Counted from the first letter of the stretch, positions 10,906-64,000 are shown. The stretch: DNA of 64,000 bases from a virus (IMGVR_UViG_3300035698_014365:12710-76709); one strand, 5' to 3'. Notes: generated by a model from the sequence alone, not told the origin. Program-made: numbers and translations.

Positions 10906-13205
10906 GTCGTGTCTCCCTGGTGCTCAGTCATGTCTCGGTGCATGTACAGCACCGACTCGAGGTCCGGAGCATTCGACACTATCCGCAAGTCGCTGAATTG
11001 GCAGCCACCAGACAGCAGCGTAACCGCCCCACCATAGCTCTCCGTCGAATCGGGCAGGTTGGCAGTGTTGGTAAGGGCCCCGTTCTCATATACAATCAAC
11101 GATGAGCCGTCACGAACCACCACCAGGTGCGTCCAGGCAGCATATGTTTCATTAAGATACACTCTTATGTCGTTGTTATCATCCTCAAATCGCAATGCGT
11201 ACCCTTCGTCTTGAAAACGGACACGCAATCGCAGTTCTCCGTCGTCGAATATCACCACTTCATCGGACAGGCTGCGAAGCCACACGCCAACAGCGAAGTC
11301 GCCGGAGCCAGTTGCTGCCATTGTGGCAGTCAGGCTGTCTGTGATGCCCATCACAACGGCGCTCCCCGACTTCCCGTCAGGGCCAATCGTAGTATTCGAG
11401 AACGATCCACCGGCAGCAACACCGGTTGCGCGGTCCATTGTCGGCGACAACTGGTCTCTGCCAATCCACAACAGAGGCGTTGACCATGCCAGCGCCCACG
11501 ACATCTCACTCATCAGCTTCTTGGGTGGCGCACTGCCCTTGCTGAACAGCTTTGCCCACATCTGCGTCATAACCAGGCGCCATGGAGCCACAACCACGCG
11601 AGTCACGAGCTGGATGAACTTCGACTCAAAGTGTCTGTCAGCCACAATCTGGCCATCAATAGGCACTTCCCGGGTCACCACAAAGTCTGTCGGCAGAGAG
11701 TCTTGGCGCAGCGCAGCGTCCATCGACATGCCCGGGCGGTATCCATCGGCATCAAACTCGCCCACAGAGCGCACGTTTTTGTACCACGGCTTCACATTGA
11801 TATGCGTCTCACTGTGCCGGTAGATGTCGGAGCCCAGCTTCGCGTACAGCTCGGGGTATATCACCTCGCTCTCAATCTCAGAGCCAGCGTACTCATCTTC
11901 CCCGTCTTTCCACTGGTCGTCACGCCCCATCTCGTGGATCTTGAACGTCGTGGCGTCCATCACCAGCGGCACACTCTCATCCACAGGACTCTGCAGCTCA
12001 ATGGTGCCCGTCTTACCAATGGGGTACGGGAATGCCTCCCCGTTGTAGAACGACCACCCAACGCCCTGAGAGGGCTGCTGAGGGATGGCGTGGCGTGCAC
12101 AGAAGTCGGTCTTACTCACGACATACCCTGAGCCGTAGTCCCAGTTGTGGATGTAGATGGTGAGGGTCGTCGTCGAGGTGTTGCCCAAGGCGTCGGTGAT
12201 TACGTACGTTACTTCGTATTCGCCAGGCGACTCGTAGGTGTGGGCCGGGTCTTTCTCGTCGCTCGTTGTGCCATCCCCAAAGTCCCAGAAGTGCCCCGTG
12301 ACAGCCGCATCCTCGGTTCCGGTGAACTGCTTGTTGTCAGGAGCGGCGCCGGTCTCTGAGTCCACCGATGCAGACGCTGCGGGGATGCCAAAGTAGAACG
12401 CCCCAACACCCTGCCTGTCCTCGTCGGCATACCCGTGGTCGTATCCGGTGAACGCATTGTCCTGCTCCGGCAGCCCAAACAGCGAGTAGCGCATGTTCTG
12501 CGTGGTGAACGTAGTGATGTCGCTCGGGATGTCGCGAGACAGCGTAACGCTGAACGTACACCCAATATACGTGATGTTGGTGCCGTTGCCGACCTGTGAC
12601 TGCGTCTTGCCCACGAAGGTGCAGTTGGTGCAAATCACCGTGTAGTTGCTGGCCACATCGAATTCGCAGTCAAGGAACAGGCAGTCGGTGAACCGGTATA
12701 CGTTGCCTATCTGGCCGTTGTACCCCACGGCGAACAGCGGCGAGTGGATTGTGCACCCCTCAAACCTGAATACACAGCTACTGTGGTCCACGTCGACCTG
12801 CAGAGAGGTCGCGTGGCGCATGTAGCACGACTTCCAGGCGTACTCATTGCTATCAGAAATTACCCGCATTGTAAGCGTGAGGTTGCCCAGAACCCCTCGC
12901 GCCGTGGTAAGGCCATCGGCGTTTTTATCCGAGCCGTAGTAGTCAAACTCGTCAGTGATTATCCACGCATCAAACCCACCCTCTGACCGATTCCACCCGT
13001 CAAGTGTTTGGTTGGGATTACCCATGAAAACGTCTACATCAAGGTAATCATATGTCCCATTCATGCGGAAAATGGAGCCTGCGGCATCCCCACCATTCTC
13101 TATGAACGTAAGCCACCGAGGATACCCCCACGGATCGGCGGAAGTACCAGGATTCATCCCCGTTCCAAGGGTGCTAAAGTCTGTGTAGAACGTCGCCATG
13201 GGCAA
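10890..13205 (-). CDS. Tail protein: beta-helix-like N-terminus, PKD domain, nozzle-like segment, LamG/concanavalin-like domain
   Basis: GTSADPW start motif; WDFGDGTTS...PAHTYESPGEYEV PKD signature; WTHLVVVRDGSSLIVYENG...FSDLRI LamG signature. Confidence 0.75.
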   Translation of the reverse strand: MPMATFYTDFSTLGTGMNPGTSADPWGYPRWLTFIENGGDAAGSIFRMNGTYDYLDVDVFMGNPNQTLDGWNRSEGGFDAWIITDEFDYYGSDKNADGLTTARGVLGNLTLTMRVISDSNEYAWKSCYMRHATSLQVDVDHSSCVFRFEGCTIHSPLFAVGYNGQIGNVYRFTDCLFLDCEFDVASNYTVICTNCTFVGKTQSQVGNGTNITYIGCTFSVTLSRDIPSDITTFTTQNMRYSLFGLPEQDNAFTGYDHGYADEDRQGVGAFYFGIPAASASVDSETGAAPDNKQFTGTEDAAVTGHFWDFGDGTTSDEKDPAHTYESPGEYEVTYVITDALGNTSTTTLTIYIHNWDYGSGYVVSKTDFCARHAIPQQPSQGVGWSFYNGEAFPYPIGKTGTIELQSPVDESVPLVMDATTFKIHEMGRDDQWKDGEDEYAGSEIESEVIYPELYAKLGSDIYRHSETHINVKPWYKNVRSVGEFDADGYRPGMSMDAALRQDSLPTDFVVTREVPIDGQIVADRHFESKFIQLVTRVVVAPWRLVMTQMWAKLFSKGSAPPKKLMSEMSWALAWSTPLLWIGRDQLSPTMDRATGVAAGGSFSNTTIGPDGKSGSAVVMGITDSLTATMAATGSGDFAVGVWLRSLSDEVVIFDDGELRLRVRFQDEGYALRFEDDNNDIRVYLNETYAAWTHLVVVRDGSSLIVYENGALTNTANLPDSTESYGGAVTLLSGGCQFSDLRIVSNAPDLESVLYMHRDMTEHQGDTTCPIW

Positions 13206-35595: not shown

Positions 35596-35603
35596 AAGTC
35601 CTC

Positions 35604-36239
35604 CTATGCGCAGTCCACACACCACCAGCGCTTGGTTTTTGTACAGTAGACAATGTCCCCCAGTTTTGGAATCTTGTCGCCGCCGCAAATCGTTATGCCG
35701 AGCTTCTTTGTCGCCTTGTACACTTTTCTCGCAAATGCCAGATATCCCTCGGGTGTATGGAGCGGGTGCTCGGCCCTGTCGAGGCAATTGAAATCATACG
35801 GCAGCCCGCTCGCATACACGTTCCAAGCATCTTCAGGATAGTGGACGTGCACCATCTTTATTGCCCACGCCTTCGCCGACCTTCTTTTTCCTCGGACGAG
35901 GAGATCGAGCTTTACGTGGACTATTTTTGTTGCCTTCGGGGTTATCCCCGCCGCCGCCATCCGCACTCGGTTCTTCCAGTCCTTCATCAGGGCTCTCTTC
36001 TTGTACACCTTGAACTCCGGGAGCTGGACAAACACCTTCATCCCCTTGTCCTTCTTGTACCGGAAGTACGCTCCCGTCATCCCCTTCGGGACTACCTTCT
36101 CCGTCCCGTCCGGCAGCGTCCACAGCAGGCTGTGCACTCCCTTGATCAGGCCGTCCTTGTCCGAGTTCCGGTGTATCCCGTCCAGCGGAGCCTTCACCCT
36201 CGACCTCTTTATCTCCGTCAGTGTCCCCTGAATCTTCAT
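35604..36239 (-). CDS. Protein-kinase-fold (Kdo/WaaP/APH-like) kinase, divergent
   Basis: GMTGAYF...MKVF, AGITPK, MVHV, GD...GDI...VDC match the order of kinase subdomains. Confidence 0.5.
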   Translation of the reverse strand: MKIQGTLTEIKRSRVKAPLDGIHRNSDKDGLIKGVHSLLWTLPDGTEKVVPKGMTGAYFRYKKDKGMKVFVQLPEFKVYKKRALMKDWKNRVRMAAAGITPKATKIVHVKLDLLVRGKRRSAKAWAIKMVHVHYPEDAWNVYASGLPYDFNCLDRAEHPLHTPEGYLAFARKVYKATKKLGITICGGDKIPKLGDIVYCTKTKRWWCVDCA

Positions 36240-36864
36240 TCTTCCTCCTGCCAATAACGTCCGCGAACCTCTTTTCAAGGCCCCAGTGCACCTCACACTC
36301 AAACCCGGCCTCCTCCAGCCACGTAATAACGGTGCTGTTCTTCTCGAAATGCTGGGAGTTGTGCTCGCGCCAGTCCTTCCCCTTCTTGCGATTGGTGCGT
36401 TCCTTCGTGCGGTTCTGGATAATCACGAGGCTGCAGTGCGGAAGAATGTGCTCTGCCACTGCGGCGAGCTCTTTGTTGGACAGGTGGTACAGGACAAAGC
36501 TGGCGTACATGGCGTTCACCTTGGCTTCCCGCTGCCCCTTGCGTATCTCCCTGCAGAAGTCCTTGGTTGACATCTTGAGAAACTCGACGTTTTGATTGAA
36601 CTTCTCGATGTGCTGTGCCGTGACCTGTGCCTGCCCCATGTATCTGTCTGAGAGGTCGATGCCAATCACACTCTTGGCGTAGTGAGCCACCTCCCACACG
36701 TACAGGCCGGCGTTGCAGCCTATCTCCAGCACGTCCATGCCCTCAAACAGGGGGGCAAACTGGGAAAAGAACCTCAGCCTGATGTCGAGCCTGGGCCAGC
36801 GCTGGTAGGCTTTCTCTTTCCACTTTGCCGCGATTTTATCGTACTTATCCTTTGTGAGTTTCAT
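35833..36864 (-). CDS. Class I SAM-dependent methyltransferase with a long acidic tail overlapping the next gene
   Basis: VLEIGCNAG, GID, VLYHL; the domain ends near 36240 but the ORF continues for 407 nt. Confidence 0.8.
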   Translation of the reverse strand: MKLTKDKYDKIAAKWKEKAYQRWPRLDIRLRFFSQFAPLFEGMDVLEIGCNAGLYVWEVAHYAKSVIGIDLSDRYMGQAQVTAQHIEKFNQNVEFLKMSTKDFCREIRKGQREAKVNAMYASFVLYHLSNKELAAVAEHILPHCSLVIIQNRTKERTNRKKGKDWREHNSQHFEKNSTVITWLEEAGFECEVHWGLEKRFADVIGRRKNEDSGDTDGDKEVEGEGSAGRDTPELGQGRPDQGSAQPAVDAAGRDGEGSPEGDDGSVLPVQEGQGDEGVCPAPGVQGVQEESPDEGLEEPSADGGGGDNPEGNKNSPRKARSPRPRKKKVGEGVGNKDGARPLS

Positions 36865-37411
36865 CCCATACCCCTTTCACGAACATAAGTTTTTTGTCGA
36901 ACTTCCCTTTATCCATTGAGCCCGGGTGGCGGTCCTCATACCACTCGGCCCATATTGACCTTTTCCCCAAAACCCACCGTGATGCTGCGCGGCCGGCACC
37001 TGTCCATATCTCGGGTCCACCTACCCACGCATTCTTCAGCCCAAATCGGGTCACCCAGAACGGCTCCTCAAGTATCTCTATCGGCTGGCGCCGGTCGTAC
37101 CCCTTCTTGCGGATGCTCTCAAACAGCTTGAATCGCTTGGGAAGGTGCACGTTGAGAATATATGCGTCCGTCCATTTGCTCATGCCAATCTTGAGCCGAC
37201 GCTGGCGCTCCTTCACATAGCGAGTCTTCTTGAGCTTGCGCCAGTCGAATCCGTGCTTCTCGTACAGCTCCAGCATCTCAACGTGCGGGCTGTTCATCAG
37301 CGACAGATCCCCCTCGTAAATATCCATCGGTGTCACGACCGGGATATACCTGATGTGCAGAGCCTCCAATTGCACCTTCTCTTTGGTGCCCGTTGAGCGG
37401 ATGTCACTCAT
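36845..37411 (-). CDS. ParB/Srx-like domain protein
   Basis: LFESIRKKGY...PI...EIWTGAGRAA resembles the ParB-N core (DGxHR degenerate). Confidence 0.45.
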   Translation of the reverse strand: MSDIRSTGTKEKVQLEALHIRYIPVVTPMDIYEGDLSLMNSPHVEMLELYEKHGFDWRKLKKTRYVKERQRRLKIGMSKWTDAYILNVHLPKRFKLFESIRKKGYDRRQPIEILEEPFWVTRFGLKNAWVGGPEIWTGAGRAASRWVLGKRSIWAEWYEDRHPGSMDKGKFDKKLMFVKGVWDETHKG

Positions 37412-37775
37412 TCTTGACCCCCACAAATTCATTCCACTTTGCCATCAGGCGCATGGGGCAGCTTCTCTTCTGACACTGAACATCGCCAGCGCCAATTTCC
37501 TCAATGAGTCCACAGGTGTCCTCGTGTGAGCCTTCTGTCACCCCGAAGAAGGGGCACTCCTGCTGGATGATATCTGGCCAGTCTAAATAGTTTTGGAGCG
37601 TGGGCATTGAGGAGCGCGCGTGTTCTAGTGGGCAATACTCTTTACAGCAAGAGGGTTCGCCCGGCGAGTACATGTCGGGAGAAATGAGCTCCTGAATGGA
37701 ACAGCTCCCATCGTCACAAAGAATGCCAAACGTCGCACATCCTGATTTGTGGTCACCCACCCAGCACCTCCTCAA
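37404..37775 (-). CDS. Cys-rich hypothetical protein with two similar modules
   Basis: C..F...C...C...CP pattern occurs twice; start uncertain. Confidence 0.5.
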   Translation of the reverse strand: MRRCWVGDHKSGCATFGILCDDGSCSIQELISPDMYSPGEPSCCKEYCPLEHARSSMPTLQNYLDWPDIIQQECPFFGVTEGSHEDTCGLIEEIGAGDVQCQKRSCPMRLMAKWNEFVGVKNE

Positions 37776-38712
37776 AGAAGTTCAGGTAGTCGTTGGCCAC
37801 ATATCCTATGTCCAGCCTGTCCGGGCGCACAGCCGGCTTCCAGTTCTGGTCTGCCGACATTATCATCGCATTGGCCAGTATGACACGGTCGAGGCGCGGA
37901 GGCTTGCCAAGGTCGATGGGTTTGAACTTGAATTTCTTGTCCTGAATGGAGATGTAATTCCACCCCTCCAGCATCTCCGCTGTGCCACCCTGGTTGGTGC
38001 AAAGCACCGGGGCTCCGGCTCCGACGGCCTCGGCAACACTGTTCGGGCAGGCGTCGAGGTGCACCACGTGAACAAATGTCGATGCTGCCTTCAGATACGA
38101 CGCGATGGTGACCTGATCGCACTCTCCCACATAGGTGACGTTGTCGCCCTTGTACTTCTTGTCCTGATCGAGCGCGTTGCCCAGAATGAACAGCTTGGAC
38201 TCCGGGATGCAGGCCATGTTAAACGACAGCACAATATCCTTCAGCCGCTTCTGCGCTATCCACTTGCGCGTACTGGCGACGAATATGTGTCCCTTCCCGA
38301 GGTCGCGTGCAGTGATGACATTGTCGTACCACTCGTAGTCCACACCGTTGTGGATAACCGTCTCTGGGCATTTCGGCTTGCACACGAACGCATGGTTGAC
38401 CTTGCGACTGTATTCTGACTGAAATACGACGGCATCAGCCAGCTTCACCGACTTCTTGCGCTTCGCATTGAGCTTTTCATAGTCCTCGTGCTTTGACACC
38501 CTCGCAGGGCCAATTCTCAGCACGTTCGCCCGGGCACGCGACTTGTACCTGATGTGCCCCACGTGGAGGGCAATATCCACCTTCTTGTCAGTGTCAGCCG
38601 TTACCTCTGCCCCGAGCTTCCCGAGAGCCGTAACGAGGCGCTGAACGAAGAAGCCCTTGCCACTCTTGGCAGCCGACCAGTCTCCATGCTTCGATGCTAT
38701 GCAGATCTTCAT
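37753..38712 (-). CDS. Glycosyltransferase GT4
   Basis: VVFQSEYS, VIHNGVD, DACPNSVAEAVGAG. Confidence 0.88.
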   Translation of the reverse strand: MKICIASKHGDWSAAKSGKGFFVQRLVTALGKLGAEVTADTDKKVDIALHVGHIRYKSRARANVLRIGPARVSKHEDYEKLNAKRKKSVKLADAVVFQSEYSRKVNHAFVCKPKCPETVIHNGVDYEWYDNVITARDLGKGHIFVASTRKWIAQKRLKDIVLSFNMACIPESKLFILGNALDQDKKYKGDNVTYVGECDQVTIASYLKAASTFVHVVHLDACPNSVAEAVGAGAPVLCTNQGGTAEMLEGWNYISIQDKKFKFKPIDLGKPPRLDRVILANAMIMSADQNWKPAVRPDRLDIGYVANDYLNFFEEVLGG

Positions 38713-39650
38713 CCCAGTAGCCTCGCCATCTTTGTCATGTTTTCGAGCCTGGTTCCGATGGCCAGCACCCGTTTTCTGCAGTCCGCCCACTCTGGCGGAA
38801 CCTCTCGTGCTCGAATTCTCTCTGCTGCTTCTCCCAGCGATCGATAGACAATAGAGTTTGAATCAGTCGAGTAATCTGCCATCCCCCCACGAGCAGAATC
38901 ACTGCGAACAATGATGCAGCCACTAAGAGCGGCCTGACTTGCGGCATTGTAGAATCCCTCCAGTTTGTTGGGGGCGAAGAAGTAGTCGCAGGCCCAGTAG
39001 AAATCTTGGAGCTGTTTGGGCTTTGGTTGCCGAATATGTGTCAGCCACCCCTTCTCGTAGCGACTGTTCCCAAACGTCAGCCACTCACACTCAGCCCCGA
39101 GTTTTCTGTGCAGCTTTTTGAAGGCCTTGAATTTCTTGCGCGGCAACTTTGAGTGTTGGCATCCAACAACAGCTCTTCCGCCGAACCGATCGCGCTCATA
39201 GAGGTACTGAAACTCGCTCTCCGCTAACCCCGCAAACACCACCTGCGCTTCCACTCCATGCTGTCGCAGCACCTCGGCGGGCCACGAGCTATTGGCCATG
39301 ACTATGCCACCCTTTTTGTGGAACTTCTTGAGCAGATGAATGATGTCGTGCTCGGGCATTGTCCACGTTTCGTACGGGCGTGCCCAATATGCCACCCGCT
39401 TCCCCTTGGCCTTCTCCATCACCAGCGGAACGTCGTGGATATGGACAGCCACAACCACGTCGGCGTTCTGTGGGATCGTCTCCTTTGGCTTCGGGTGCTT
39501 GAACCATGTGAATCCGTCGTGCGTCGCCACCACCGACACCTTATGCCCCAGATCGCGCAGGGCCTGAGCAGACAACAGGATGGTGCGCGTGCCACCCGTG
39601 TTGTTGAGCTGCCCCCAATAATGGTGGTCGTTGTAGAAGCATATGTTCAT
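38709..39650 (-). CDS. Glycosyltransferase GT4
   Basis: GGTR...LRDLGHKV, EGFYNAASQAALSGC. Confidence 0.82.
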   Translation of the reverse strand: MNICFYNDHHYWGQLNNTGGTRTILLSAQALRDLGHKVSVVATHDGFTWFKHPKPKETIPQNADVVVAVHIHDVPLVMEKAKGKRVAYWARPYETWTMPEHDIIHLLKKFHKKGGIVMANSSWPAEVLRQHGVEAQVVFAGLAESEFQYLYERDRFGGRAVVGCQHSKLPRKKFKAFKKLHRKLGAECEWLTFGNSRYEKGWLTHIRQPKPKQLQDFYWACDYFFAPNKLEGFYNAASQAALSGCIIVRSDSARGGMADYSTDSNSIVYRSLGEAAERIRAREVPPEWADCRKRVLAIGTRLENMTKMARLLG

Positions 39651-40441
39651 AGGAATTTCCCCAGCGCCTTGACGACCTTCTTCACCGGAGGCTGCCAGTT
39701 GTGATCTTGTAAGATTTTGCACGGCGTACCAAATGGTGACCATAGCTTTTTGTACCTGTCTTTATTCGTCCCCTTGATGGCCTTCTCGTACTTGTCGTAG
39801 GTCATCACAACATGTGGTAGCCCACACAGGCTCGCCAAATGCGCCGGGCCCGACGACGGGCTGAGCATCACCTTGCTCGAGGCCATAATATCACACAGCC
39901 TTCTCAGCGAAATCCCTCTGAGGTCTTCTGTCCCGGGCACATGATACGCCCCCTTCGTTGTTCCAATACTGCACACGGTGTGTGGCTTCAGCGCCTCGAC
40001 AACCTTCACATAGTTCTTCAGCGGCCAGTTGCGATTCTTGTGGTTCGACTTATGGGCGAATTTTGTCTCAGCGCGCGCGTGAATCACAAGGTTGTACTTC
40101 CACGCCCCACTCACCTCGCCGTACTTCACATACTCTCTCGCCCACTTGCAGCACACCTTGCGCCCGGGAGACAGGTGAATGACCTCTCCCACCACGGGAA
40201 TCGGCACATCGAACGACGGCTTAATGCGCAATTTCTTCCCGTTGAAAAACCATCGGTCGGCAACCCCGTCTGGGCTGTATGAAATAAAGTCGGTCGCAAA
40301 CTCGTACAGAAACTCGTGCTCAGGCCGACATATCACCGTCACGCGCTCGAATCGTGGGGCAATATGGCGCAACGCTGGAATCCAGGTGGCGACACACCAT
40401 CCAAATTCCATAGAGTCAGGGCCTGCGACGAGGTGTCTCAT
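39647..40441 (-). CDS. Glycosyltransferase GT9 (heptosyltransferase-like)
   Basis: KNRNWP, DLRG.SL, SSGPAHLASLCGLPHV. Confidence 0.82.
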   Translation of the reverse strand: MRHLVAGPDSMEFGWCVATWIPALRHIAPRFERVTVICRPEHEFLYEFATDFISYSPDGVADRWFFNGKKLRIKPSFDVPIPVVGEVIHLSPGRKVCCKWAREYVKYGEVSGAWKYNLVIHARAETKFAHKSNHKNRNWPLKNYVKVVEALKPHTVCSIGTTKGAYHVPGTEDLRGISLRRLCDIMASSKVMLSPSSGPAHLASLCGLPHVVMTYDKYEKAIKGTNKDRYKKLWSPFGTPCKILQDHNWQPPVKKVVKALGKFL

Positions 40442-40611
40442 GGTGTGAATCTTACGCACTCTGGTGGGTATTCTGATTCCTGCCCGTTTCCAGCAGCATC
40501 AAACCATTCACAGCAGACGTAGTTGTCGCCAACAAACGTAATAGTCATGTCTGGGCCGCCGCTGTTCAGACAAACCACATAGCCAACTTTCATTTTTTCG
40601 TCGTCGCTCAT
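40438..40611 (-). CDS. YodC/DUF2158-like small protein
   Basis: Read by hand: MKVGYVVCLNSGGPDMTI...VCCEWFD. Confidence 0.7.
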   Translation of the reverse strand: MSDDEKMKVGYVVCLNSGGPDMTITFVGDNYVCCEWFDAAGNGQESEYPPECVRFTP

Positions 40612-41372
40612 CACCACACCGCCTTTCTCATGGGCTTCTTTGCCCGGACAATTTTCTCACATCGCTTCTCAACGACACGCTTCTTCTTCGTCTTCACATC
40701 GCGATAATAGTAGATGAGCCTGTGGATGTGCACACATCGGCTGAGCCCAGCCAGTTCTATCGCCGGCATCATCAGCGCCAAGTCGGAGCACGCTGGCAGC
40801 CACGCGCCCTTGTGCTTGAAACAATCCTCCGGAATCTGCCTGAACAGCTTCCATTTCATTGTCTTGAGGTGCGAGCCGCGCCACGGATGCTTCCTGACAT
40901 TGGCCCCGTCGGGGTAGGCATTCGAAATCTTCGTTCTGCGGCCGACCGACTTCTTCAAATACGAGCCGTAGGTCAGCAGGCACTTCGGGTTCTTCTGGTA
41001 GGCGCGCTCAACAATGCGCAGAGCCTTCGGGTCGAGCTTATCGCCATCCCCGTCCAGAAACACCAGGATATCCTCTGGGTCGAACGGAATACTCTCATAG
41101 GACGTGTCGCAGTGTTGCTTCTGAATCCAAGGGGCCTTGTATATCTGGCGCGCGACACCGTAGTTCTTCTCACTAACCGATATGGATATCTTCCCCAGAG
41201 GCAGATTTGCATTCCTGCGGAAGCTGTCAACGGCCGTGAGCGTCCTGTCCTCCGGCGCATCCAGTGCTACGTGCGCAACCCACTTCTCACACGTCTGGCC
41301 GACGAGACTCTTCAGAGTCTTGCCGATCAGATGCTCTGCATTGCGAGCGCGCATGATTACGCGGAACAGCAT
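40611..41372 (-). CDS. Glycosyltransferase GT2
   Basis: ARNAE..I...L.SL..Q, FLDGDGD, TYGSY, SHLKT, DLALM. Confidence 0.85.
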   Translation of the reverse strand: MLFRVIMRARNAEHLIGKTLKSLVGQTCEKWVAHVALDAPEDRTLTAVDSFRRNANLPLGKISISVSEKNYGVARQIYKAPWIQKQHCDTSYESIPFDPEDILVFLDGDGDKLDPKALRIVERAYQKNPKCLLTYGSYLKKSVGRRTKISNAYPDGANVRKHPWRGSHLKTMKWKLFRQIPEDCFKHKGAWLPACSDLALMMPAIELAGLSRCVHIHRLIYYYRDVKTKKKRVVEKRCEKIVRAKKPMRKAVW

Positions 41373-42277
41373 CAGCAAATCACCTTTCTGGAGTTGTGCA
41401 GGAGCTTCTTTGTCCCCTTGTCGCTCCCCATGCACGCCTTGGCAATAGCAATCCACTCAGGGTCTTTCCACAGCCTCTTATAGCGCTTCACGGCCGTCTC
41501 GGTGATGAGTTTGCTGCGACGCCCCTCTTTGAGCCTTCTGGCAAACTTGAAGTCCCCAAGATGGATGTCGCGGTAGCTCGCACTCGACTTCTGACCATTT
41601 GGCATCTCGTTCTTGTGCTTCGGAACCTTGATTCCTGACCCGCGCAGCATCCGGCAGTGCATGACCTCGTCGTACTCCCGATAGCTGCCAAACTTGTGCT
41701 TATCGAGACCATCCCTCTTCTGTCCGGTCGCAACAGCCTTGTAGAGCGCGCGCTGAGCCTTCACGGCCTTCAGCCATTGTTTCACGTGAATCATCACTGT
41801 ACCACCGCAGATGCGCATGTAGTGGTCGCGCCAGCCGTGCTCACCGTGAATCTTCGGGCGCCAGGGGCGAGTAGACGGGCCCCGGAACGCACTGTACGGA
41901 ACTCCGCCCTTTTTCATCACAGACACGTGGTACTGGAGGTGTGTTGGCGTGTGACGGAAAACGACGAAATCCACGTCCGTGATATACGCATATTTGTAAG
42001 GCTTCAGGTAAGCTCGCGGTATCAGCAACCGACAGGCGCCACAGGTTCCCTTCCCGTTCCGATAATTCAGGAATTGATTCTCTATCACATCCCAGCCCAC
42101 CATAGACTGAAACGGCTTCGTATTGAGAATCGCAGCAACCCCTGGCAGCAACTTCCCTCGGATTAGTACCTTCACGTCCCACTCTGGGTACGCTCGTTTT
42201 ACCGAGTATATCCACAGGGGAATGAAGAATTCAAACCCGTCGGCGCTGACAACCGTGAATGCACACACCTTCGCCAT
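41372..42277 (-). CDS. Putative GT-A fold glycosyltransferase
   Basis: YAYITDVDF (DxD), RICGG, DE; cluster context. Confidence 0.55.
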   Translation of the reverse strand: MAKVCAFTVVSADGFEFFIPLWIYSVKRAYPEWDVKVLIRGKLLPGVAAILNTKPFQSMVGWDVIENQFLNYRNGKGTCGACRLLIPRAYLKPYKYAYITDVDFVVFRHTPTHLQYHVSVMKKGGVPYSAFRGPSTRPWRPKIHGEHGWRDHYMRICGGTVMIHVKQWLKAVKAQRALYKAVATGQKRDGLDKHKFGSYREYDEVMHCRMLRGSGIKVPKHKNEMPNGQKSSASYRDIHLGDFKFARRLKEGRRSKLITETAVKRYKRLWKDPEWIAIAKACMGSDKGTKKLLHNSRKVIC

Positions 42278-56704: not shown

Positions 56705-56917
56705 ATGACAACCTGCCGTAATTTCCTATGCTGGCACCATTCCACACTCGAGCCGTCCGGTTGCGTAGAGATCTGCGACCTCAAGATATGCACCAGGCGC
56801 AAGGCGTTCGAGAGAATTATGAGCGTGAGCGGGACTGAGAATGATAGCTACGAGGCCATATATGCCGCGCGCGGGTACAGGCTCACCAAGGAACTGGAGG
56901 AGGCAATGAAGAAATGA
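56705..56917 (+). CDS. Small Cys-rich hypothetical protein
   Basis: 70-aa coupled ORF. Confidence 0.5.
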   Translation: MTTCRNFLCWHHSTLEPSGCVEICDLKICTRRKAFERIMSVSGTENDSYEAIYAARGYRLTKELEEAMKK

Positions 56918-59658: not shown

Positions 59659-60663
59659 ATGCCTTTCACAAAGCTCGACACAAACATCCTCGATAGCAGC
59701 ATCTGGGCCGAGTCTCTTGCAACCAGGGTGGTCTGGGTGGCCTTTCTCGCGAAAGCAGATCAGCACGGGTTTGTCGCCACATCCAGAAGCGGAATGCTGA
59801 GGGCGGCAAACGTGCCAGAGCAGGAGTTCGACGCCGCGATAAGCTGCCTTGAGTCCCCAGATCCAGACTCTCGCACGCCCGACAACGAGGGGCGCAGGAT
59901 AGAGAGAGTGGTTGGGGGGTGGACGGTTCTTAACTACAAGAAATACCGTGAGATGCGCGGAGAAACGGTGGATACGCGAAGGACAAAGGATGGATATGTG
60001 TATTTTGCCGGCACCGGAGACCGCGTTAAAATAGGGTATTCGCTCAATCCGTGGAGTCGAGTAAACGACCTAAGGGTTGCAAATCCGGCCATTATTCTCT
60101 ACGGATCATACAAGGCCCCGATGTCTGTAGAGAAAGAACTCCACGAAAGATTTGCCGTGGCAAACATAGAGCGAGAGTGGTTTTCTCTCACAGAAGAACT
60201 CTCGCAAGTCATTGAACAACTTACAGGAAAGACTACGGTAGGTGCTACCAAAGGGGCTACGGTAGCTACTTCCTCTGTATCTGCTTCTGTATCTGTATCT
60301 GCTTCTGTAAAGAAGGAAAAGCCTTTATGGAAAAGATCGTTTCTTGCCTACAAGGTAAATCACGATACGGCGTACGCGATGTTGCGCTCAAATGATGTGT
60401 GGATGGCAGAGCGCAGAAAATTTCACCCGGGCCTCGACATTCTCCTGTCGATGGAAAAGGCGGCAACTGAATACTGGGGCACGGAGGCTGGCTGGAAGAA
60501 GAGGAAGTCCTCACAGACCCTTACCCTTGACTGGACGAAAACCTACATCAATGTCCTGTCGATGAAAAATAATCAGGTCTGGCTTCCGCGGGAACAGCAA
60601 CAGGCGGCGAGTTCCTACGCACCCAACCCACTACCCGGGCCGGAGAAGTTGGAAAAACCATGA
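59659..60663 (+). CDS. Phage replication initiator with an inserted GIY-YIG/T5orf172-like domain
   Basis: FTKL...ILDSSIW...L..PDP.SR....GRRI N-domain; GYVYF...VKIGYS.NP..R...E..LH..F.....EWF; upstream of DnaB. Confidence 0.75.
   Translation: MPFTKLDTNILDSSIWAESLATRVVWVAFLAKADQHGFVATSRSGMLRAANVPEQEFDAAISCLESPDPDSRTPDNEGRRIERVVGGWTVLNYKKYREMRGETVDTRRTKDGYVYFAGTGDRVKIGYSLNPWSRVNDLRVANPAIILYGSYKAPMSVEKELHERFAVANIEREWFSLTEELSQVIEQLTGKTTVGATKGATVATSSVSASVSVSASVKKEKPLWKRSFLAYKVNHDTAYAMLRSNDVWMAERRKFHPGLDILLSMEKAATEYWGTEAGWKKRKSSQTLTLDWTKTYINVLSMKNNQVWLPREQQQAASSYAPNPLPGPEKLEKP
60231..60309 (+). repeat. Short repeats inside the initiator gene, putative replication origin
   Basis: CTACGGTAG twice and TCTGTATCTGCTTCTGTA twice in the low-complexity linker, as in lambda O-type origins. 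Confidence 0.5.
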
Positions 60664-61997
60664 CCGACCGCATCCCCCCATCCTCCCCTGACACCGAGCG
60701 CTCCGTTCTGGGCTCCTGCCTCATTTCTGGCCGCAAAACGGTGGCCAACGCTATCAACGCGGGCCTGGACGAGAGCGATTTCTACCTCTCAGCCCACCGA
60801 AGCATCTGGTCAGCAACGGCCTCGGTGTGGGATTCTGGCCATGAGCCCGACCTTGAGACTGTCCACGACTCACTGCTTGCATCCGGTCTGGCCGACACCT
60901 GTGGTGGCACCCCGTATCTGTCAGAATTGATGAATATGGCCTCTTCTCCCAACCTGCTGCCATGGGTCAAGATTCTCAAGCAATATTCTTCACGGCGCCG
61001 AATGATAGCAGTTGGCAATAAAATGGCCGAGCGGGCCTACGACATGGAGATTCCTACAAAAACCCTCGAGGCCGACGCTCAGGACGACGTATTCACCAAT
61101 GTCGTGTCGCTGGATGTCGATCACCGACCGCGGCTGGTCAAGGAGCTCATCCCTGAGTTCTTCGAGAGGGTTAAGGGATATTCTGAAGGCTCCATTCAGG
61201 GAATTAAAACAGGGTTCGCTGGTCTGGACGCGCGTATCGGAGGGTTTATGAATTCTGACCTCATAATCCTCGCAGGACGGCCCTCAATGGGCAAGACCTC
61301 CTTTGCCCTGTCTGTGGGGCTGGGAGCCGCTACAAAAGATTCTTCCGTGCTTTTTTGCAGCATTGAGACCTCTACAGCACAGCTCATGGAACGCCTGATG
61401 TGCATGGAGGCCGGAGTTGAGATGTCGCAGCTACGCGCCGGCACGCTTCCACAGAGAGAATTTCCCAAGCTGACCATCGCCGCGGGGCCAATGGAAAGCG
61501 CGACACTGCGCATAGACGACACTCCGAGCCTCACGGTCGCCCAAGTCCGCAGCAAATTAATGCGCACCGAGGGAATAAAGCTGCTGATTGTCGATTACCT
61601 GCAGTTCATGGACGGCCCGGGCAAGCCTGGTAATGAGAAAACGAGCGCCATCAGCAAGGGCATGAAAATGATTGCCAAGGAATTTGATATCCCTGTGATA
61701 TTACTCAGTCAGTTGTCGCGCGCGGTTGAGCAGAGGGGTGGAGACAAGCGGCCGCAGTTGTCGGATCTGCGTGACAGCGGGGCCATTGAGCAGGACGCCG
61801 ATGTGGTGATATTCGTGTACCGCGGTGAATATTATTTCCGCGAAGACGAGTCGCTGAAGGGAAAAGGGGAATTAATTGTTTCGAAGCAGCGCAACGGGCC
61901 GATAGGGTTTGTGCCGCTGGAATGGCAGTCGTCATTCGCCAGATTCGCGAGCCCCAAGTACGGGGAAACAGAGCCTGGCTGGGAGGATGATATTTAA
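60660..61997 (+). CDS. dnaB: Replicative DNA helicase
   Basis: AGRPSMGKT, IVDYLQ, LSQLSRAVEQR, LSDLRDSGAIEQDAD, KQRNGP. Confidence 0.96.
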   Translation: MTDRIPPSSPDTERSVLGSCLISGRKTVANAINAGLDESDFYLSAHRSIWSATASVWDSGHEPDLETVHDSLLASGLADTCGGTPYLSELMNMASSPNLLPWVKILKQYSSRRRMIAVGNKMAERAYDMEIPTKTLEADAQDDVFTNVVSLDVDHRPRLVKELIPEFFERVKGYSEGSIQGIKTGFAGLDARIGGFMNSDLIILAGRPSMGKTSFALSVGLGAATKDSSVLFCSIETSTAQLMERLMCMEAGVEMSQLRAGTLPQREFPKLTIAAGPMESATLRIDDTPSLTVAQVRSKLMRTEGIKLLIVDYLQFMDGPGKPGNEKTSAISKGMKMIAKEFDIPVILLSQLSRAVEQRGGDKRPQLSDLRDSGAIEQDADVVIFVYRGEYYFREDESLKGKGELIVSKQRNGPIGFVPLEWQSSFARFASPKYGETEPGWEDDI

Positions 61998-62112
61998 CGC
62001 CGTCTCAGGCACCCTCCGCGACTCATCCTGGGCGCGGTATGTGAACGGGCACAGAGGAAACTCTGTGTGGGTGTCTGGGGCGGCCACCCCAACAGGAGAG
62101 AGTGACACATGA
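61987..62112 (+). CDS. Small array gene (41 aa) ending in the repeat B peptide ATPTGESDT
   Basis: Overlaps the dnaB end; coupled to the next ATG. Confidence 0.45.
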   Translation: MIFNAVSGTLRDSSWARYVNGHRGNSVWVSGAATPTGESDT

Positions 62113-62630
62113 GACCAGTAATGCAGACGAAGCTCGGGAAGGTTGACGGGAATTGCCTCCAGGCGTGTATCGCCTCTTTGCTGGAGGTGCCCGTTGAGGA
62201 GATGCCCGATGTAATCAGTGATGATGATTGGGTAGATGAAACCAATGCGACCCTTAAGCCATACGGGTACTACTACATGTCTTTTGTGCAGAACCCAGAA
62301 ATCCAGTTCCCACTCCGTGGCTACCATGTCATTCATGGAGACGATGGCCCACACGGGCACAACCACTGTGTTGTTGGGAAGTGCGGGGAGCCTGTGCATG
62401 ACCCCCACCCGTCAAAGCCGGGAGTCAACGGGACAATCACCTACGGGATTCTCGTACCGCTCTCTCCCGCCACCCCCACCGCTACGACTGAGGGGTGTGA
62501 GGGGTGTGGATGGTCAGAACTCGGTGGGCCACACCTGTTGTGTGGGAGTTGCCGCCAGTGTACTCGCATGAAACGTGAGCCGCCAACTGATAACTTCACA
62601 CCCAAGACGGGAGAGGATGGCAATGGCTGA
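62109..62630 (+). CDS. Modular array protein: peptidase-C39-like N-module, PTATTEG linker, Cys module
   Basis: Q...GNC.QACIASLL...H.VV...VHDPHP N-module; repeat-encoded linker. Confidence 0.7.
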   Translation: MRPVMQTKLGKVDGNCLQACIASLLEVPVEEMPDVISDDDWVDETNATLKPYGYYYMSFVQNPEIQFPLRGYHVIHGDDGPHGHNHCVVGKCGEPVHDPHPSKPGVNGTITYGILVPLSPATPTATTEGCEGCGWSELGGPHLLCGSCRQCTRMKREPPTDNFTPKTGEDGNG

Positions 62631-62883
62631 ACCATATAGAGATAAATTTCTGCGCCAGTGCGAAGAGGACATTGGGCATAAACCCAATTGGAAAACCGAT
62701 GATTATACGGAATGGTTGGAGGCTAGGTATCTGGTATTGCTTACCACAAGCCCCACCCCCACCGCTACGACTGAGGGGTGCAAGACATGTGGCGGGAAGA
62801 AGTACGTGCCCGATAGCGACTTCGATGGTGAGCCTACGCCATGCCCCGACTGCGGGGGAACAGGAGAGAGTGACAATGGCTGA
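62623..62883 (+). CDS. Modular array protein: N-module, PTATTEG linker, DnaJ-type CxxCxG finger
   Basis: CKTCGG...CPDCGGTGESDNG. Confidence 0.7.
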   Translation: MAEPYRDKFLRQCEEDIGHKPNWKTDDYTEWLEARYLVLLTTSPTPTATTEGCKTCGGKKYVPDSDFDGEPTPCPDCGGTGESDNG

Positions 62884-63304
62884 ACTGATGACACAGCGCG
62901 AATTCATACAGTTCGTTTCCGAGGTATCGACAACAGAGTACGCCGCGTCAGAGCAACTTGCTGGCCTGCGCAACACGGCAAGGCGACTTCTGGCCGCCAC
63001 CCCCACCGCTACGTGTAATGAGTGCGGGAACCCGCCAGCTCTGCACCGCTCTCACTGCCCCACCTCCACCGCTACGACTGAGGGGGAGTGCTATACCTGT
63101 AAGGGTGATGGGGAAATAGTGGAAGTGTCCCACGAAACCAACTCTGCCGATGTTGTGCCATGCCCTGACTGTGCCACCGCTACGACTGAGGGGGCGTGTC
63201 CCGAAGACTGTATACAACGCGCAGGGCGGTCGTGCCTGCTCAGCACCAACCATTGCACACGCAGGGCAGAGGATTTCTACACCCCAACAGGAGAGAGTGA
63301 CTAA
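62876..63304 (+). CDS. Modular array protein with three Cys modules separated by repeat A
   Basis: MAEL start; PTAT-CNEC, TATTEG-CYTCKG, TATTEG-CPEDC; ends TPTGESD. Confidence 0.7.
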   Translation: MAELMTQREFIQFVSEVSTTEYAASEQLAGLRNTARRLLAATPTATCNECGNPPALHRSHCPTSTATTEGECYTCKGDGEIVEVSHETNSADVVPCPDCATATTEGACPEDCIQRAGRSCLLSTNHCTRRAEDFYTPTGESD

Positions 63305-63305
63305 C

Positions 63306-63458
63306 ATGGACACACAGTTATTTGCTGACCCGGTTTTCTGGCAAGGCGCGATGGTAGGAGTTTCCATCACATGCGTGCTGATTATATCCATTGGCAGCAC
63401 TATACGCTGGCTGGTGGAGAGGTCGCCACCCCAACAGGAGAGAGTGACACATGGCTGA
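63306..63458 (+). CDS. Small membrane protein in the array (50 aa)
   Basis: Hydrophobic helix GAMVGVSITCVLIISIG; bounded by two B repeats. Confidence 0.55.
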   Translation: MDTQLFADPVFWQGAMVGVSITCVLIISIGSTIRWLVERSPPQQERVTHG

Positions 63459-63666
63459 ACTGACTGATAGACAGAACTTCTCGTGTGAATGTGACTATTG
63501 CAGCAATGACGAGTCTCCATTATGCCCACGCAACAAGGCCCCCACCGCTACGACTGAGGGGTGTGAGACGTGCGGGGGGAAGAAGTACGTGCCCGATAGC
63601 GACTTCGATGGTGAGCCTACGCCATGCCCCGACTGCGGGGGAACAGGAGAGAGTGACAATGGGTGA
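63451..63666 (+). CDS. Modular array protein: Cys N-module, PTATTEG linker, duplicated DnaJ-type finger
   Basis: C-module nearly identical to that of 62623-62883. Confidence 0.7.
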   Translation: MAELTDRQNFSCECDYCSNDESPLCPRNKAPTATTEGCETCGGKKYVPDSDFDGEPTPCPDCGGTGESDNG

Positions 63667-64000
63667 ACTGAAAATCGCAATCACGTATGATGGCCCACTG
63701 GACACCGGGGTTGACGATAGGTTGCGCAAGGCCATGGAGTCCATCGGTGGCAAATGGTACGCACAAGGCACAGACCGTACCACTGGCGTGCGCGACTTGG
63801 CCTTTGACTTGGGTGCAGCCCCCACCGCTACGACTGAGGGGGGCGATGGGTCGCCGTGTCCGCAATTCTCAAGGGAACTTGTGCCAGACGGTGACAACCA
63901 CCACCACACAGAGGTTCCATGGTGCAATTCTGGGGGCGTAATGAGAGCGGGCCACGCCGAAGACTGCCGATGCCTAAAGTGCCACAGAGAACACAAGGGA
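63659..64000 (+). CDS. Modular array protein, truncated by the window end
   Basis: Read by hand: MGELKIAITYDG...LGAAPTATTEGGDGSPC...CRCLKC; no stop before 64000. Confidence 0.65.
   Translation, partial: MGELKIAITYDGPLDTGVDDRLRKAMESIGGKWYAQGTDRTTGVRDLAFDLGAAPTATTEGGDGSPCPQFSRELVPDGDNHHHTEVPWCNSGGVMRAGHAEDCRCLKCHREHKG

What the first reader, a model, noticed from the sequence alone, without database searches (positions are those of the whole stretch)
61987..64000. Array of genes assembled from interchangeable modules at two in-frame DNA repeats: candidate combinatorial gene-shuffling system
Seen: after dnaB most genes follow one grammar, B-[N-module]-A-[Cys/zinc module]-(A-[module])n-B; two small genes (61987, 63306) lack A. 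Repeat A (22 nt, 7 copies, some partial) is always read as the (P)TAT(TEG) linker. Repeat B (ACAGGAGAGAGTGAC-n-ATGGCTGAACTGA in its fullest form) does three jobs: it encodes the C-terminal TGESD(NG), supplies the Shine-Dalgarno sequence, and carries an overlapping start/stop, so any cassette placed after it is translated. A and several B copies share a 5' core ACCCC(C/A)AC (TPT), so a module ending in TPT can either continue (A) or terminate (B). The repeats are conserved at the DNA level, including third codon positions, while the modules between them are mostly unrelated. Inference: the repeats are recombination joints that let the phage swap N-modules and zinc-finger modules between genes and genomes, like integron cassettes but at sub-gene scale. 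Modular early genes of lambdoid phages (ea22/ead) are a loose precedent; I do not know a described system with this two-repeat grammar. No dedicated recombinase is visible in the window.
Basis: partly seen in the sequence, partly recalled or inferred. Interest (0 to 1): 0.88.

Follow-up and report, generated by a model that had tools for sequence, protein, structure and literature searches.

The report
Phage gene array with recombination joints
A salt-lake phage carries about 15 small genes assembled from unrelated pieces that are joined by two short, letter-identical DNA motifs, and related phages swap whole genes and half-genes exactly at those motifs, so this looks like a natural kit for shuffling genes and protein domains.

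Summary
The contig is circular, with a 95-bp end overlap. The array runs from window 61997 across the contig end to genome position about 2642, roughly 4.6 kb. It holds 10 copies of repeat A plus one partial copy, and 12 core copies of repeat B plus degenerate ones. Neither repeat occurs elsewhere in the 76.6 kb.

Protein-level selection cannot explain the identical codons: the chance per copy is 1.4e-4 for A and 1.9e-5 for B. Five metagenome contigs from other salt-lake samples carry A and B at 97-100% identity, while almost everything else in them is unrelated or only 35-60% identical as protein.

Every informative homology endpoint lies on a repeat. Two cassette sets replace each other between 99.6-100% identical backbones, with breakpoints at B. 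g3 and g6 share a segment running from A to B. Database proteins are exact chimeras across A: P0026 is g15-N plus g12-C, and P0027/28 are another phage's N-part plus g15-C.

The B core also occurs in non-coding spacers before start codons in a further phage, so B is first a translation-start adaptor, like mycobacteriophage SAS. An endonuclease, a possible annealing protein and an exonuclease lie just after the array. No dedicated recombinase is shown.

The closest precedents are T4-type PeSL cassettes and gp38 motif shuffling. The in-frame two-level grammar is a new variant. The scan had also flagged this array in the neighbouring window of the same genome.

The parts
61997..62086 (+). Structured RNA-like element that occupies the first 'slot' after dnaB. 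It overlaps the putative 41-codon ORF g1 (61987-62112).
   Evidence: The + strand folds at -55.8 kcal/mol, z -5.9, with 0 of 200 shuffles as stable; the minus strand gives z -2.7. The homologous block in L007:23-112 is 89% identical, has unrelated flanks and no ORF. All substitutions keep pairing, one is a compensatory A-U to G-C change, and 0 of 31 pairs break. Rfam gives no match.
62083..62111 (+). Repeat B copy 1 (GCCACCCCAACAGGAGAGAGTGACACATG). It supplies the SD and the start of g2.
62109..62630 (+). g2: N-module with a papain/C39-like fold (residues 1-120), then A, then a Cys module, ending in a degenerate B (..TPKTGEDGNG*).
   Evidence: 22 homologues are stand-alone proteins of about 125 aa that end where A begins. 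Cys16, His86 and D98-P-H100 are invariant.
62475..62495 (+). Repeat A copy (in g2)
62607..62632 (+). Degenerate B (ACGGGAGAGGATGGCAATGGCTGAAC) at the g2/g3 junction.
   Evidence: family D5
62617..62883 (+). g3: N-module, A, DnaJ-type CxxCxGxG zinc module, B tail.
62756..62888 (+). 133-nt segment (A + zinc module + extended B) duplicated at 63539-63671 with 95% identity. The flanks are unrelated.
62758..62778 (+). Repeat A copy (in g3)
62860..62888 (+). Repeat B copy 2 in its full form (ACAGGAGAGAGTGACAATGGCTGAACTGA), with an 8-nt stop/start overlap.
62876..63304 (+). g4: N-module, partial A, Cys module, A, zinc module, A, CPxDC..RRAEDFY module, B tail.
   Evidence: The last module belongs to a widespread C-terminal domain family.
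63002..63013 (+). Partial repeat A (CCCACCGCTACG).
63065..63085 (+). Repeat A copy (1 mismatch, Pro to Ser)
63173..63193 (+). Repeat A copy (1 mismatch, Pro to Ala)
63287..63301 (+). Repeat B copy 3
63306..63458 (+). g5: 50-aa membrane-type protein without A. It reads B in a different frame.
63425..63463 (+). Repeat B copy 4 (extended form)
63451..63666 (+). g6: a different N-module joined through A to the same zinc module as g3.
63541..63561 (+). Repeat A copy (in g6)
63643..63671 (+). Repeat B copy 5 (extended form)
63659..64000 (+). g7, which runs across the contig end to genome position 137 (..PTPTGESDEV*). The array then continues as g8-g15 at genome 127-2642 (L001), followed by an endonuclease gene (2642-3241), a 385-aa candidate annealing protein (3234-4391) and a DUF2800/PD-(D/E)XK exonuclease (4384-5484).
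   Evidence: A Logan contig reads on across the end (table 5c).
63821..63841 (+). Repeat A copy (in g7)

Best explanation
This is a hyperplastic early-gene array of a group of salt-lake phages, in which two short sequences conserved at the nucleotide level act as standard joints.

B is about 25-35 nt: a CA-rich leader, AGGAGAGAG, a fixed spacer, the start codon, and the upstream gene's stop. It is a universal gene-boundary adaptor. It terminates the upstream reading frame and gives whatever lies behind it the same unstructured ribosome-binding site. When genes are packed head to tail, it necessarily writes the tail TPTGESD(NG).

A is about 21-27 nt and is always read as (P)TATTEG. It is an in-frame interdomain joint.

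Both motifs are identical in every copy, and A always sits in the same frame. Homologous or short-homology recombination between copies therefore yields viable products. Exchange at B swaps, deletes or duplicates whole genes. Exchange at A re-pairs N-terminal modules with C-terminal (mostly Cys4) modules. Exchange can occur within a genome or between co-infecting relatives.

Shown: the repeats, their nucleotide-level conservation across diverged phages, and breakpoints exactly at them.

Inferred: the phage's own recombination genes next to the array (endonuclease, candidate annealing protein, PD-(D/E)XK exonuclease) carry out the exchange; B works as a translation start region; and shuffling is a selected function rather than a side effect.
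For: 1. Repeats and grammar.

2. Nucleotide-level conservation. The same codons occur in all copies, with a per-copy chance of 1.4e-4 (A) and 1.9e-5 (B) given the peptide. The variants in A are non-synonymous and sit at its edge. B is kept in genes that read it in other frames: g5, and the L004 pentapeptide gene ending ..PNRRE*.

3. Five metagenome contigs (L003-L007) share 24-34 nt A/B stretches with this genome at 97-100% identity. The only other nucleotide matches are one 85-nt RNA-like block and two stretches of 66-75% identity. Their backbone genes are only 35-60% identical as protein.

4. Breakpoints.
- L003 vs L005: 1699 nt at 99.6% identity ends at the 3' end of extended B.
- L003 vs L004: 610 nt at 100% identity starts 6 nt before B. 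Between these points lie different cassette sets of 4 and 3 genes.
- L003 vs L006 homology starts and ends at B.
- The g3/g6 shared segment runs from A to extended B.

5. Chimeras across A.
- P0026 = g15 N-part (56/56 identical) + A + g12 C-part (36/36).
- P0027 and P0028, from two contigs, = N-part of the L005 gene (~83%) + diverged A + g15 C-part (29/29).
- P0001 = g2 N-part (97%) + A, then a different end.

6. The homologues of the g2 N-module are all complete proteins that end where A starts.

7. The B core lies in non-coding spacers directly before two start codons in another phage contig, G001. B regions are unstructured in folds.

8. Recombination genes follow the array directly.
Against: - All comparative evidence comes from short metagenome contigs and predicted proteins. 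Chimeric assembly at 22-35-nt repeats cannot be fully excluded.
- No module other than the RNA-like block is shared at high nucleotide identity between this genome and L003-L007. The 100% identity of A and B across these phages is therefore not explained by recent cassette transfer. It implies direct selection on the sequence, for which the recombination model alone gives only a second-order reason.
- No function is known that would hold A fixed at the nucleotide level.
- 21-35 nt is short for efficient annealing-protein recombination.
- The 385-aa neighbour is not demonstrably an annealing protein (no Pfam match; atlas leads of 0.76-0.77 only).
Confidence: 0.6

Rival explanations
1. Expression elements first, recombination as a by-product. 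B is a conserved translation-initiation region or operator, like the start-associated sequences of Cluster K mycobacteriophages. It may be bound by the ribosome or by a phage regulator that controls the whole array together. A is another RNA- or protein-bound element, or a linker under dual constraint. Any sequence conserved for such reasons then happens to serve as homology, so the breakpoints at A and B are a consequence and not the purpose.
For: - The B core with its CA-rich leader occurs in purely non-coding spacers before start codons in G001.
- The most invariant part of B is GGAGAGTGAC plus a fixed distance to the ATG, even where the 5' part varies.
- B is unstructured, with z at or above 0 in most copies.
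- A and B are 100% identical across phages whose modules and backbones have diverged. This needs direct purifying selection.
- SAS show the same properties: asymmetric, containing AGGAG, 3-7 nt before starts, restricted to non-structural genes, and conserved across gene families (PMC3203893).
Against: - No function for A is apparent. Its hairpin is weak and not significant (z from 0.3 to -1.8).
- A is always in the same reading frame (16 of 16 copies). An RNA element does not need this, but in-frame exchange does.
- The exact chimeras across A show that A is used as a joint.
- The two readings are not exclusive.
Confidence: 0.25
2. A dedicated, sequence-specific system. A phage enzyme recognises A and/or B, possibly through their shared 5' core ACCCC(A/C)AC. 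The endonuclease VII/HNH-like protein encoded right after the array is a candidate. It nicks or cuts there, so repair by the adjacent exonuclease and annealing protein targets exchange to the joints. This would be functionally like shufflon or integron sites, but acting on direct, in-frame joints.
For: - Exact sequence conservation of 21-35 nt across diverged phages is what a recognition site would show.
- A and B share a 5' core (13 of 21 positions when aligned without gaps, read directly from the two sequences).
- The endonuclease gene (phrog_2340 at 9e-31, endonuclease VII families) abuts the last, degenerate B.
Against: - No integrase, serine recombinase or Rci-like gene was seen near the array.
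- Endonuclease VII/HNH genes are common in phages for other reasons.
- The relatives' short contigs show no such gene beside their arrays.
- There is no biochemical evidence.
Confidence: 0.1
3. Artefact. The variant junctions are chimeric joins made by assemblers at the short repeats, and the array is a static family of paralogues.
For: - The junctions sit on repeats, which is where assemblers err.
- Contigs are short and coverage is low: depth is 2-7 in Logan contigs.
- P0026 rests on a single 975-bp contig.
Against: - Independent samples agree on each arrangement: L004 with L005, L003 with L006, P0027 with P0028.
- The repeats (22-35 nt) are shorter than read length and shorter than the final k-mers of common assemblers (my knowledge).
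- g3/g6 and the whole grammar lie within one contig whose pieces are reproduced in other runs (table 8).
- Nucleotide conservation across contigs does not depend on assembly.
Confidence: 0.05

Closest known systems
PeSL (promoter-early stem-loop) mobile regulatory cassettes of T4-type phages (Arbiol et al. 2010, PMC2839356; Comeau et al. 2014, PMC4122927)
   Same: Both are short conserved expression motifs that flank small ORFan genes in hyperplastic regions. In both, insertions, deletions and replacements between related phages have their ends at the motifs. In both, the motif gives the incoming gene its expression signal. In PeSL, recombination between neighbouring copies makes mini-circles. 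The P0026 junction (g15-N/g12-C) is what a circle or tandem duplication between two A copies would give.
   Different: PeSLs are about 100 bp, intergenic, and act in transcription (sigma-70 promoter plus terminator). B is 25-35 nt, acts in translation (stop + SD + start), and overlaps the coding sequence of both neighbouring genes. PeSLs have no counterpart of A, the in-frame joint inside genes.
Start-associated sequences (SAS/ESAS) of Cluster K mycobacteriophages (Pope et al. 2011, PMC3203893)
   Same: SAS are asymmetric conserved motifs that contain AGGAG and lie at a fixed short distance before start codons. They have one orientation, occur only among non-structural genes, are attached to unrelated gene families, and are conserved across subclusters. 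B has all of these properties.
   Different: SAS are 13 bp, and no role in recombination or cassette exchange has been described. Their function was still untested in 2025 (PMC12699233). B additionally encodes a constant C-terminal tail and carries the upstream stop. There is no A-like partner.
Conserved-motif-mediated domain swapping in T-even tail-fibre adhesins (gp38 glycine-rich motifs; Tetart et al. 1998, cited in PMC3157838)
   Same: Exchange happens below gene level, between short conserved in-frame motifs that separate variable segments.
   Different: There the motifs are structural core elements of a single protein family with a fixed order of segments. Here A joins unrelated domains across many different genes, and it is conserved at synonymous sites.
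Integron gene cassettes (attC/attI, IntI)
   Same: Both are arrays of promoter-less cassettes in one orientation with a repeated site at each boundary, and cassette content varies between relatives.
   Different: No tyrosine recombinase was seen. The sites are not imperfect palindromes that fold like attC: B is unstructured. The joints lie inside coding sequence and one of them is sub-genic.
Shufflons and multiple-inversion systems (Rci/sfx, Min)
   Same: Short repeats conserved at sequence level re-pair an N-terminal part with alternative C-terminal parts of a protein.
   Different: Shufflon repeats are inverted and need a dedicated recombinase. Here all copies are direct, so a single genome can only delete, duplicate or excise. 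Re-pairing needs a second molecule.

Membership tests
PeSL-type mobile regulatory cassettes | A conserved motif flanks variable ORFs, and indels or replacements between relatives end at the motif. | tested here: met
   six endpoints lie within 0-14 nt of A or B.
PeSL-type mobile regulatory cassettes | The motif consists of a sigma-70 early promoter plus a stem-loop terminator. | tested here: not met
   Promoter- and terminator-like sites are at chance level in the array. B is unstructured.
PeSL-type mobile regulatory cassettes | Mini-circles form by exchange between neighbouring motifs. | tested here: inconclusive
   P0026 has the junction expected of a circle or duplication between the A copies of g12 and g15. 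Its DNA could not be fetched. Logan contigs gave no junction evidence.
Start-associated sequences (Cluster K type) | An asymmetric conserved motif containing the SD lies a few nt before start codons, in one orientation, in the non-structural region. | tested here: met
   All copies are on the + strand and lie 8-12 nt before the ATG or GTG.
Start-associated sequences (Cluster K type) | Sequence consensus GGGATAGGAGCCC, in an actinobacteriophage host group. | tested here: not met
   The B sequence is different, so this is an analogy and not membership.
Integron | An IntI tyrosine recombinase lies next to the array. | tested here: not met
   The genes flanking the array are dnaB, an endonuclease, an unknown 385-aa protein and an exonuclease. 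The whole genome was not scanned for integrases.
Integron | attC sites are imperfect inverted repeats that fold as hairpins. | tested here: not met
   Folds of A and B are not better than shuffles.
Shufflon / invertible multi-site system | The repeats are in inverted orientation. | tested here: not met
   All A and B copies are direct, on one strand.
Diversity-generating retroelement | A template/variable repeat pair with A-specific mismatches, and a reverse transcriptase. | not tested
   Nothing suggested it. The modules between the joints are unrelated to each other, not point-mutated copies.

The most novel reading that the evidence does not exclude
A and B are recognition sites of a phage-encoded, sequence-specific nicking or cutting enzyme. 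The endonuclease VII/HNH-like gene that ends the array is the candidate, working with the adjacent exonuclease and annealing protein. Together they would form a dedicated system that reassorts whole genes at B and protein domains at A, in frame, including through excised cassette circles. That would be an 'exon-shuffling' device for phage accessory proteins.
Probability: 0.12. Interest if true: 0.92.

Novelty: new variant of a known kind. Interest (0 to 1): 0.72.

Why it matters
Phage mosaicism is usually put down to rare illegitimate recombination followed by selection. Cases where defined short sequences channel the exchange are few; PeSLs and tail-fibre motifs are the main ones.

Here a single locus shows two nested levels of channelled exchange. 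One is between genes. The other is between domains inside genes, in frame. Natural recombinants are visible in public data for both.

If this holds up in the laboratory, it would offer three things:
- a tractable model for how phages build new small proteins, probably host-takeover or anti-defence factors, from a shared pool of modules;
- an explanation for how ORFan-rich regions stay expressible;
- a compact natural design (universal stop/SD/start adaptor plus in-frame linker) that may be of use in synthetic biology.

It also gives the SAS-type motifs, whose function remains unknown, a second candidate role.

Tried and rejected
- Pure protein-level conservation of the linker and tail was rejected. 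The codons are identical, with per-copy chances of 1.4e-4 and 1.9e-5, and B is kept in other reading frames.
- RNA structure as the reason for A or B was rejected. Fold z-scores range from +1.2 to -1.8, and Rfam gives no match.
- Promoters and terminators inside the array are at chance level.
- Replication iterons were considered and set aside. The spacing of 100-800 bp, the constant reading frame and the presence of arrays inside a glycan cluster in relatives do not fit.
- Searches that found nothing useful: A and B in IMG/VR gave only G001 for B, plus 35 single chance-like hits for a 16-mer. A and B in 185,579 prokaryote genomes gave none. Relatives via DnaB or an L003 glycosyltransferase in IMG/VR gave none. 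Isolated phages gave only DnaB matches below 40% identity. The protein word search with g3 found only g3 itself and g6.
- Read-level test. Only low-depth Logan contigs were available (9 salt-lake runs). The 'joints' are other array copies cross-matching through A or B (side 22-27 nt), so they are neither support nor refutation. Parts without cover are not evidence. One contig does read on across the contig end, which agrees with circularity.
- The covariance model of the RNA-like block found no further copies.
- The PDB sequence search for the 385-aa neighbour found nothing relevant.


Full report
**1. What is there**

The window is the last 64 kb of a single 76,709-bp virus contig whose ends overlap by 95 bp, so the sequence is circular or circularly permuted. 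A Logan contig from a salt-lake run reads on across the end (table 5c). The array therefore does not stop at 64000. It continues through genome positions 1-2642 (locus L001).

In all it holds a structured non-coding-looking block, about 15 small genes (41-173 codons) and one 146-bp gap, spread over about 4.6 kb. Counts of the two repeats:
- Repeat A (CCCACCGCTACGACTGAGGGG): 10 copies with at most 1 mismatch, plus one half copy.
- Repeat B (ACAGGAGAGAGTGAC): 12 copies with at most 1 mismatch, plus two degenerate copies.
- Neither repeat occurs anywhere else in the genome, and shuffles give 0 and 0.17 matches.

A is always read as (P)TATTEG. B comes in two forms. In ..GTGACAATGGCTGA(AC) the start overlaps the upstream stop by 8 nt and the next gene begins MAE... 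In ..GTGACACATGA the overlap is 4 nt.

**2. The conservation is at nucleotide level**

Given the peptide and this genome's codon usage, an independent copy would use the same codons with probability 1.4e-4 for A and 1.9e-5 for B. The three variants seen in full A copies are all amino-acid-changing and lie at the 5' edge. No synonymous variant exists among 16 full copies in six sequences. B is retained where it is read in other frames: in g5 (..PQQERVTHG*) and in a pentapeptide-repeat gene in L004 (..PNRRE*). Neighbouring Cys modules that are homologous as proteins (36-51% identity) have diverged, while the B that follows them is letter-identical.

**3. Relatives**

A scan of metagenome contigs with A found five contigs from other samples (L003-L007). 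Against this genome their nucleotide matches are 24-34 nt A/B stretches at 97-100% identity, one 85-nt block (see section 7), and two stretches of 66-75% identity.

Their backbone genes are glycosyltransferases and methyltransferases. These match this phage's glycan cluster (window about 35600-41400) at only 35-60% protein identity. In these relatives the A/B cassettes sit inside the glycan cluster, between two genes that are directly adjacent in this genome (window 36238/36240). The arrays are therefore not tied to one genomic site.

A further IMG/VR contig (G001) has two copies of CCACCAACACCAACAGGAGAGAGTGA. They lie in non-coding spacers, after the upstream stop and directly before an ATG and a GTG start. 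No other virus contig, and none of 185,579 prokaryote genomes, holds A or B. The runs that hold the array are all labelled salt-lake metagenomes.

**4. Breakpoints**

- L003 and L005 are 99.6% identical over 1699 nt. The identity ends at the last base of extended B (ATGGCTGAACTGA).
- L003 and L004 are 100% identical over 610 nt, starting 6 nt before B.
- L004 and L005 overlap at 98.8%.
- Between these two B sites L003 carries four genes and L005+L004 carry three entirely different genes.
- L003 and L006 share three cassettes. The similarity starts 11 nt before a B-like copy and ends 2 nt after a B. After that B, L006 re-enters an earlier cassette.
- Within this genome, g3 and g6 share 133 nt (95% identity) running from 2 nt before A to the end of extended B, with unrelated N-modules.

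At protein level:
- P0026 (ENA, 975-bp contig) is g15's N-module (56/56 identical) + TPTATTEG + g12's C-module (36/36).
- P0027 and P0028 (two ENA contigs) are the N-module of the L005 cassette gene (~83%) + TSPAMTEG + g15's C-module (29/29).
- P0001 is g2's N-module (97%) + PTATTE, followed by a different end.

All nine informative endpoints fall on the joints, which cover about 15% of the array. The chance of that is about 4e-8 (my arithmetic). The 22 homologues of g2's N-module are complete proteins of about 125 aa that end just where A begins, so A sits at a true domain boundary.

**5. What B most likely does**

The evidence fits a standardised translation-start and stop adaptor:
- It has an AGGAG core.
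- The most invariant part is GGAGAGTGAC at a fixed distance from the start codon.
- Upstream lies a CA-rich, unstructured leader.
- It is used in non-coding spacers in G001.
- It is also used after the two structured, apparently untranslated blocks of this array.

The TGESD tail is then the price of packing genes head to tail. This is very close to the start-associated sequences of Cluster K mycobacteriophages (PMC3203893), whose function is still untested (PMC12699233).

**6. Mechanism of exchange**

All copies are direct. Within one molecule, recombination can only delete, or excise a circle. Between two molecules it duplicates or re-pairs modules. P0026 has exactly the junction (downstream N-module joined to upstream C-module) that a circle or a tandem duplication between the A copies of g12 and g15 would carry. 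Those copies are 834 bp apart and the contig is 975 bp (834 + 141). I flag this only as a lead.

Directly after the last, degenerate B come four genes:
- an endonuclease VII/HNH-like gene (phrog_2340, 9e-31);
- a 385-aa protein of a viral family without annotation, whose nearest named look-alikes are Rad52 and RecT clusters at only 0.76-0.77;
- a DUF2800/PD-(D/E)XK exonuclease (3e-33);
- a weak resolvase-like ORF.

General phage recombination acting on short identical joints is the most economical mechanism. Nothing shows a site-specific recombinase.

The open problem is why A and B stay letter-identical across phages that share no modules. For B, direct function explains it. For A, I have no direct function. 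A recognition-site role (novel case) or strong homogenisation remain possible.

**7.

The first 'gene' (61987-62112) is probably not a gene. Positions 61997-62086 fold on the + strand into a Y-shaped structure (-55.8 kcal/mol, z -5.9). The same block in L007 (89% identity) has unrelated flanks and no ORF. Its substitutions include one compensatory pair and no broken pair.

A second stable hairpin (genome 620-694, z -4.05) follows g9 in the only gap of the array.

Modules behind A are not only zinc modules. g11 has a DUF551-like module there, and the L003 genes have helical modules. The last Cys module of g4 belongs to a widespread C-terminal domain (CPxDC..GRxC..NHCxRRAEDYY) found on many small proteins with unrelated N-parts, none of which has A or B. 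'Variable N-part plus small Cys-rich C-part' is therefore a general architecture. What is special to this phage group is the DNA-level joints.

**8. Comparison and verdict**

The closest known system is the PeSL cassette system of T4-type phages. There, conserved expression motifs flank ORFans, indels end at the motifs, and mini-circles form (PMC2839356). For the sub-gene level, the closest is the motif-mediated swapping in gp38 adhesins (PMC3157838). The present locus is not a member of either. It has no promoter/terminator motif, different sequences, and a translation-level adaptor overlapping coding sequence. It adds a second, in-frame joint shared by many unrelated genes. Integron, shufflon and DGR membership tests fail on defining features.

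I rate it a new variant of a known kind (motif-channelled modular shuffling). It is real, statistically solid and supported by natural recombinants. It rests on metagenome assemblies only, and the enzyme and the selected function are unresolved.

The same array was flagged independently in the neighbouring window of this genome by the scan (notes e1-6046260 and others). No look-alike was noted in other genomes.

Noticed in passing
window 61997-62086 (+); L007:23-112: An ~86-nt Y-shaped structured element lies between the dnaB stop and the first B. It folds with z -5.9 (L007 copy z -4.95). It is conserved at 89% in a diverged relative with unrelated flanks. One substitution pair is compensatory and 0 of 31 pairs break. 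Rfam gives no match. It may be an unknown RNA (processing site, stabiliser or sRNA) rather than the 41-codon ORF.
   Followed up: partly
L001:620-694 (genome 620-694): A second stable hairpin (z -4.05, 0 of 200 shuffles as stable) lies right after the g9 stop, in the only gap of the array. It is followed by a 25-codon ORF ending in TPTGESDT* and by a B copy.
   Followed up: partly
window 62109-62470 (g2 N-module): This is a stand-alone ~125-aa family (phrog_5845) with invariant Cys16, His86 and Asp98-Pro-His100. The AlphaFold model (pLDDT about 88 over residues 1-120) weakly resembles C39 double-glycine peptidase domains (7n87: E 7.7e-3, prob 0.99, TM 0.42-0.47). It is probably a papain-like cysteine peptidase of unknown target.
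   Followed up: partly
window 63190-63290 (last module of g4): The C-terminal motif CPxDCxxRxGRxCxLxxNHCxRRAEDYY defines a widespread domain with no Pfam entry. It sits at the C-terminus of about 20 or more small proteins whose N-parts are unrelated to each other.
   Followed up: partly
L003 (minus strand) 4536-6198; L004; L005; compare window 36238-36240: In relatives, A/B cassette arrays are inserted between a methyltransferase gene and the next gene of the glycan-building cluster. In this genome those two genes are adjacent with an ordinary SD between them.
   Followed up: yes
L004:810-1000 and L005 (reverse complement) 4620-4871: A cassette gene carries NHGTV(K/E)(F/A)-type 7-residue tandem repeats whose copy number differs between samples. 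The Ala/Ser/Trp-rich repeat of the 'MKTIEAWHF' cassette likewise differs in length between L003 and L006.
   Followed up: no
L002 (reverse complement) 12110-12410 = G001:C1:47075-47344: A different 59-kb virus contig has two exact 26-nt copies of CCACCAACACCAACAGGAGAGAGTGA in non-coding spacers before a small Cys-rich gene and the next gene. The core is the same as B but the copies are not coding.
   Followed up: partly
L001:127-336 and window 56705-56917: g8 (MKCRNYLC..KHRKDFERI..) looks like a paralogue of the small Cys-rich ORF at window 56705-56917 (MTTCRNFLC..TRRKAFERI..), which lies outside the array.
   Followed up: no
window 59659-60663: The ORF before dnaB has a T5orf172/GIY-YIG-like middle part (weak PHROG hits, one to a homing endonuclease family) and an 18-nt tandem Ser/Val/Ala repeat (60265-60300).
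   Followed up: no
genome ends (window 63906-64000 = genome 1-95): The 95-bp terminal overlap shows that the contig is circular or permuted. The window edge cuts gene g7 and hides half of the array and the recombination genes.
   Followed up: yes
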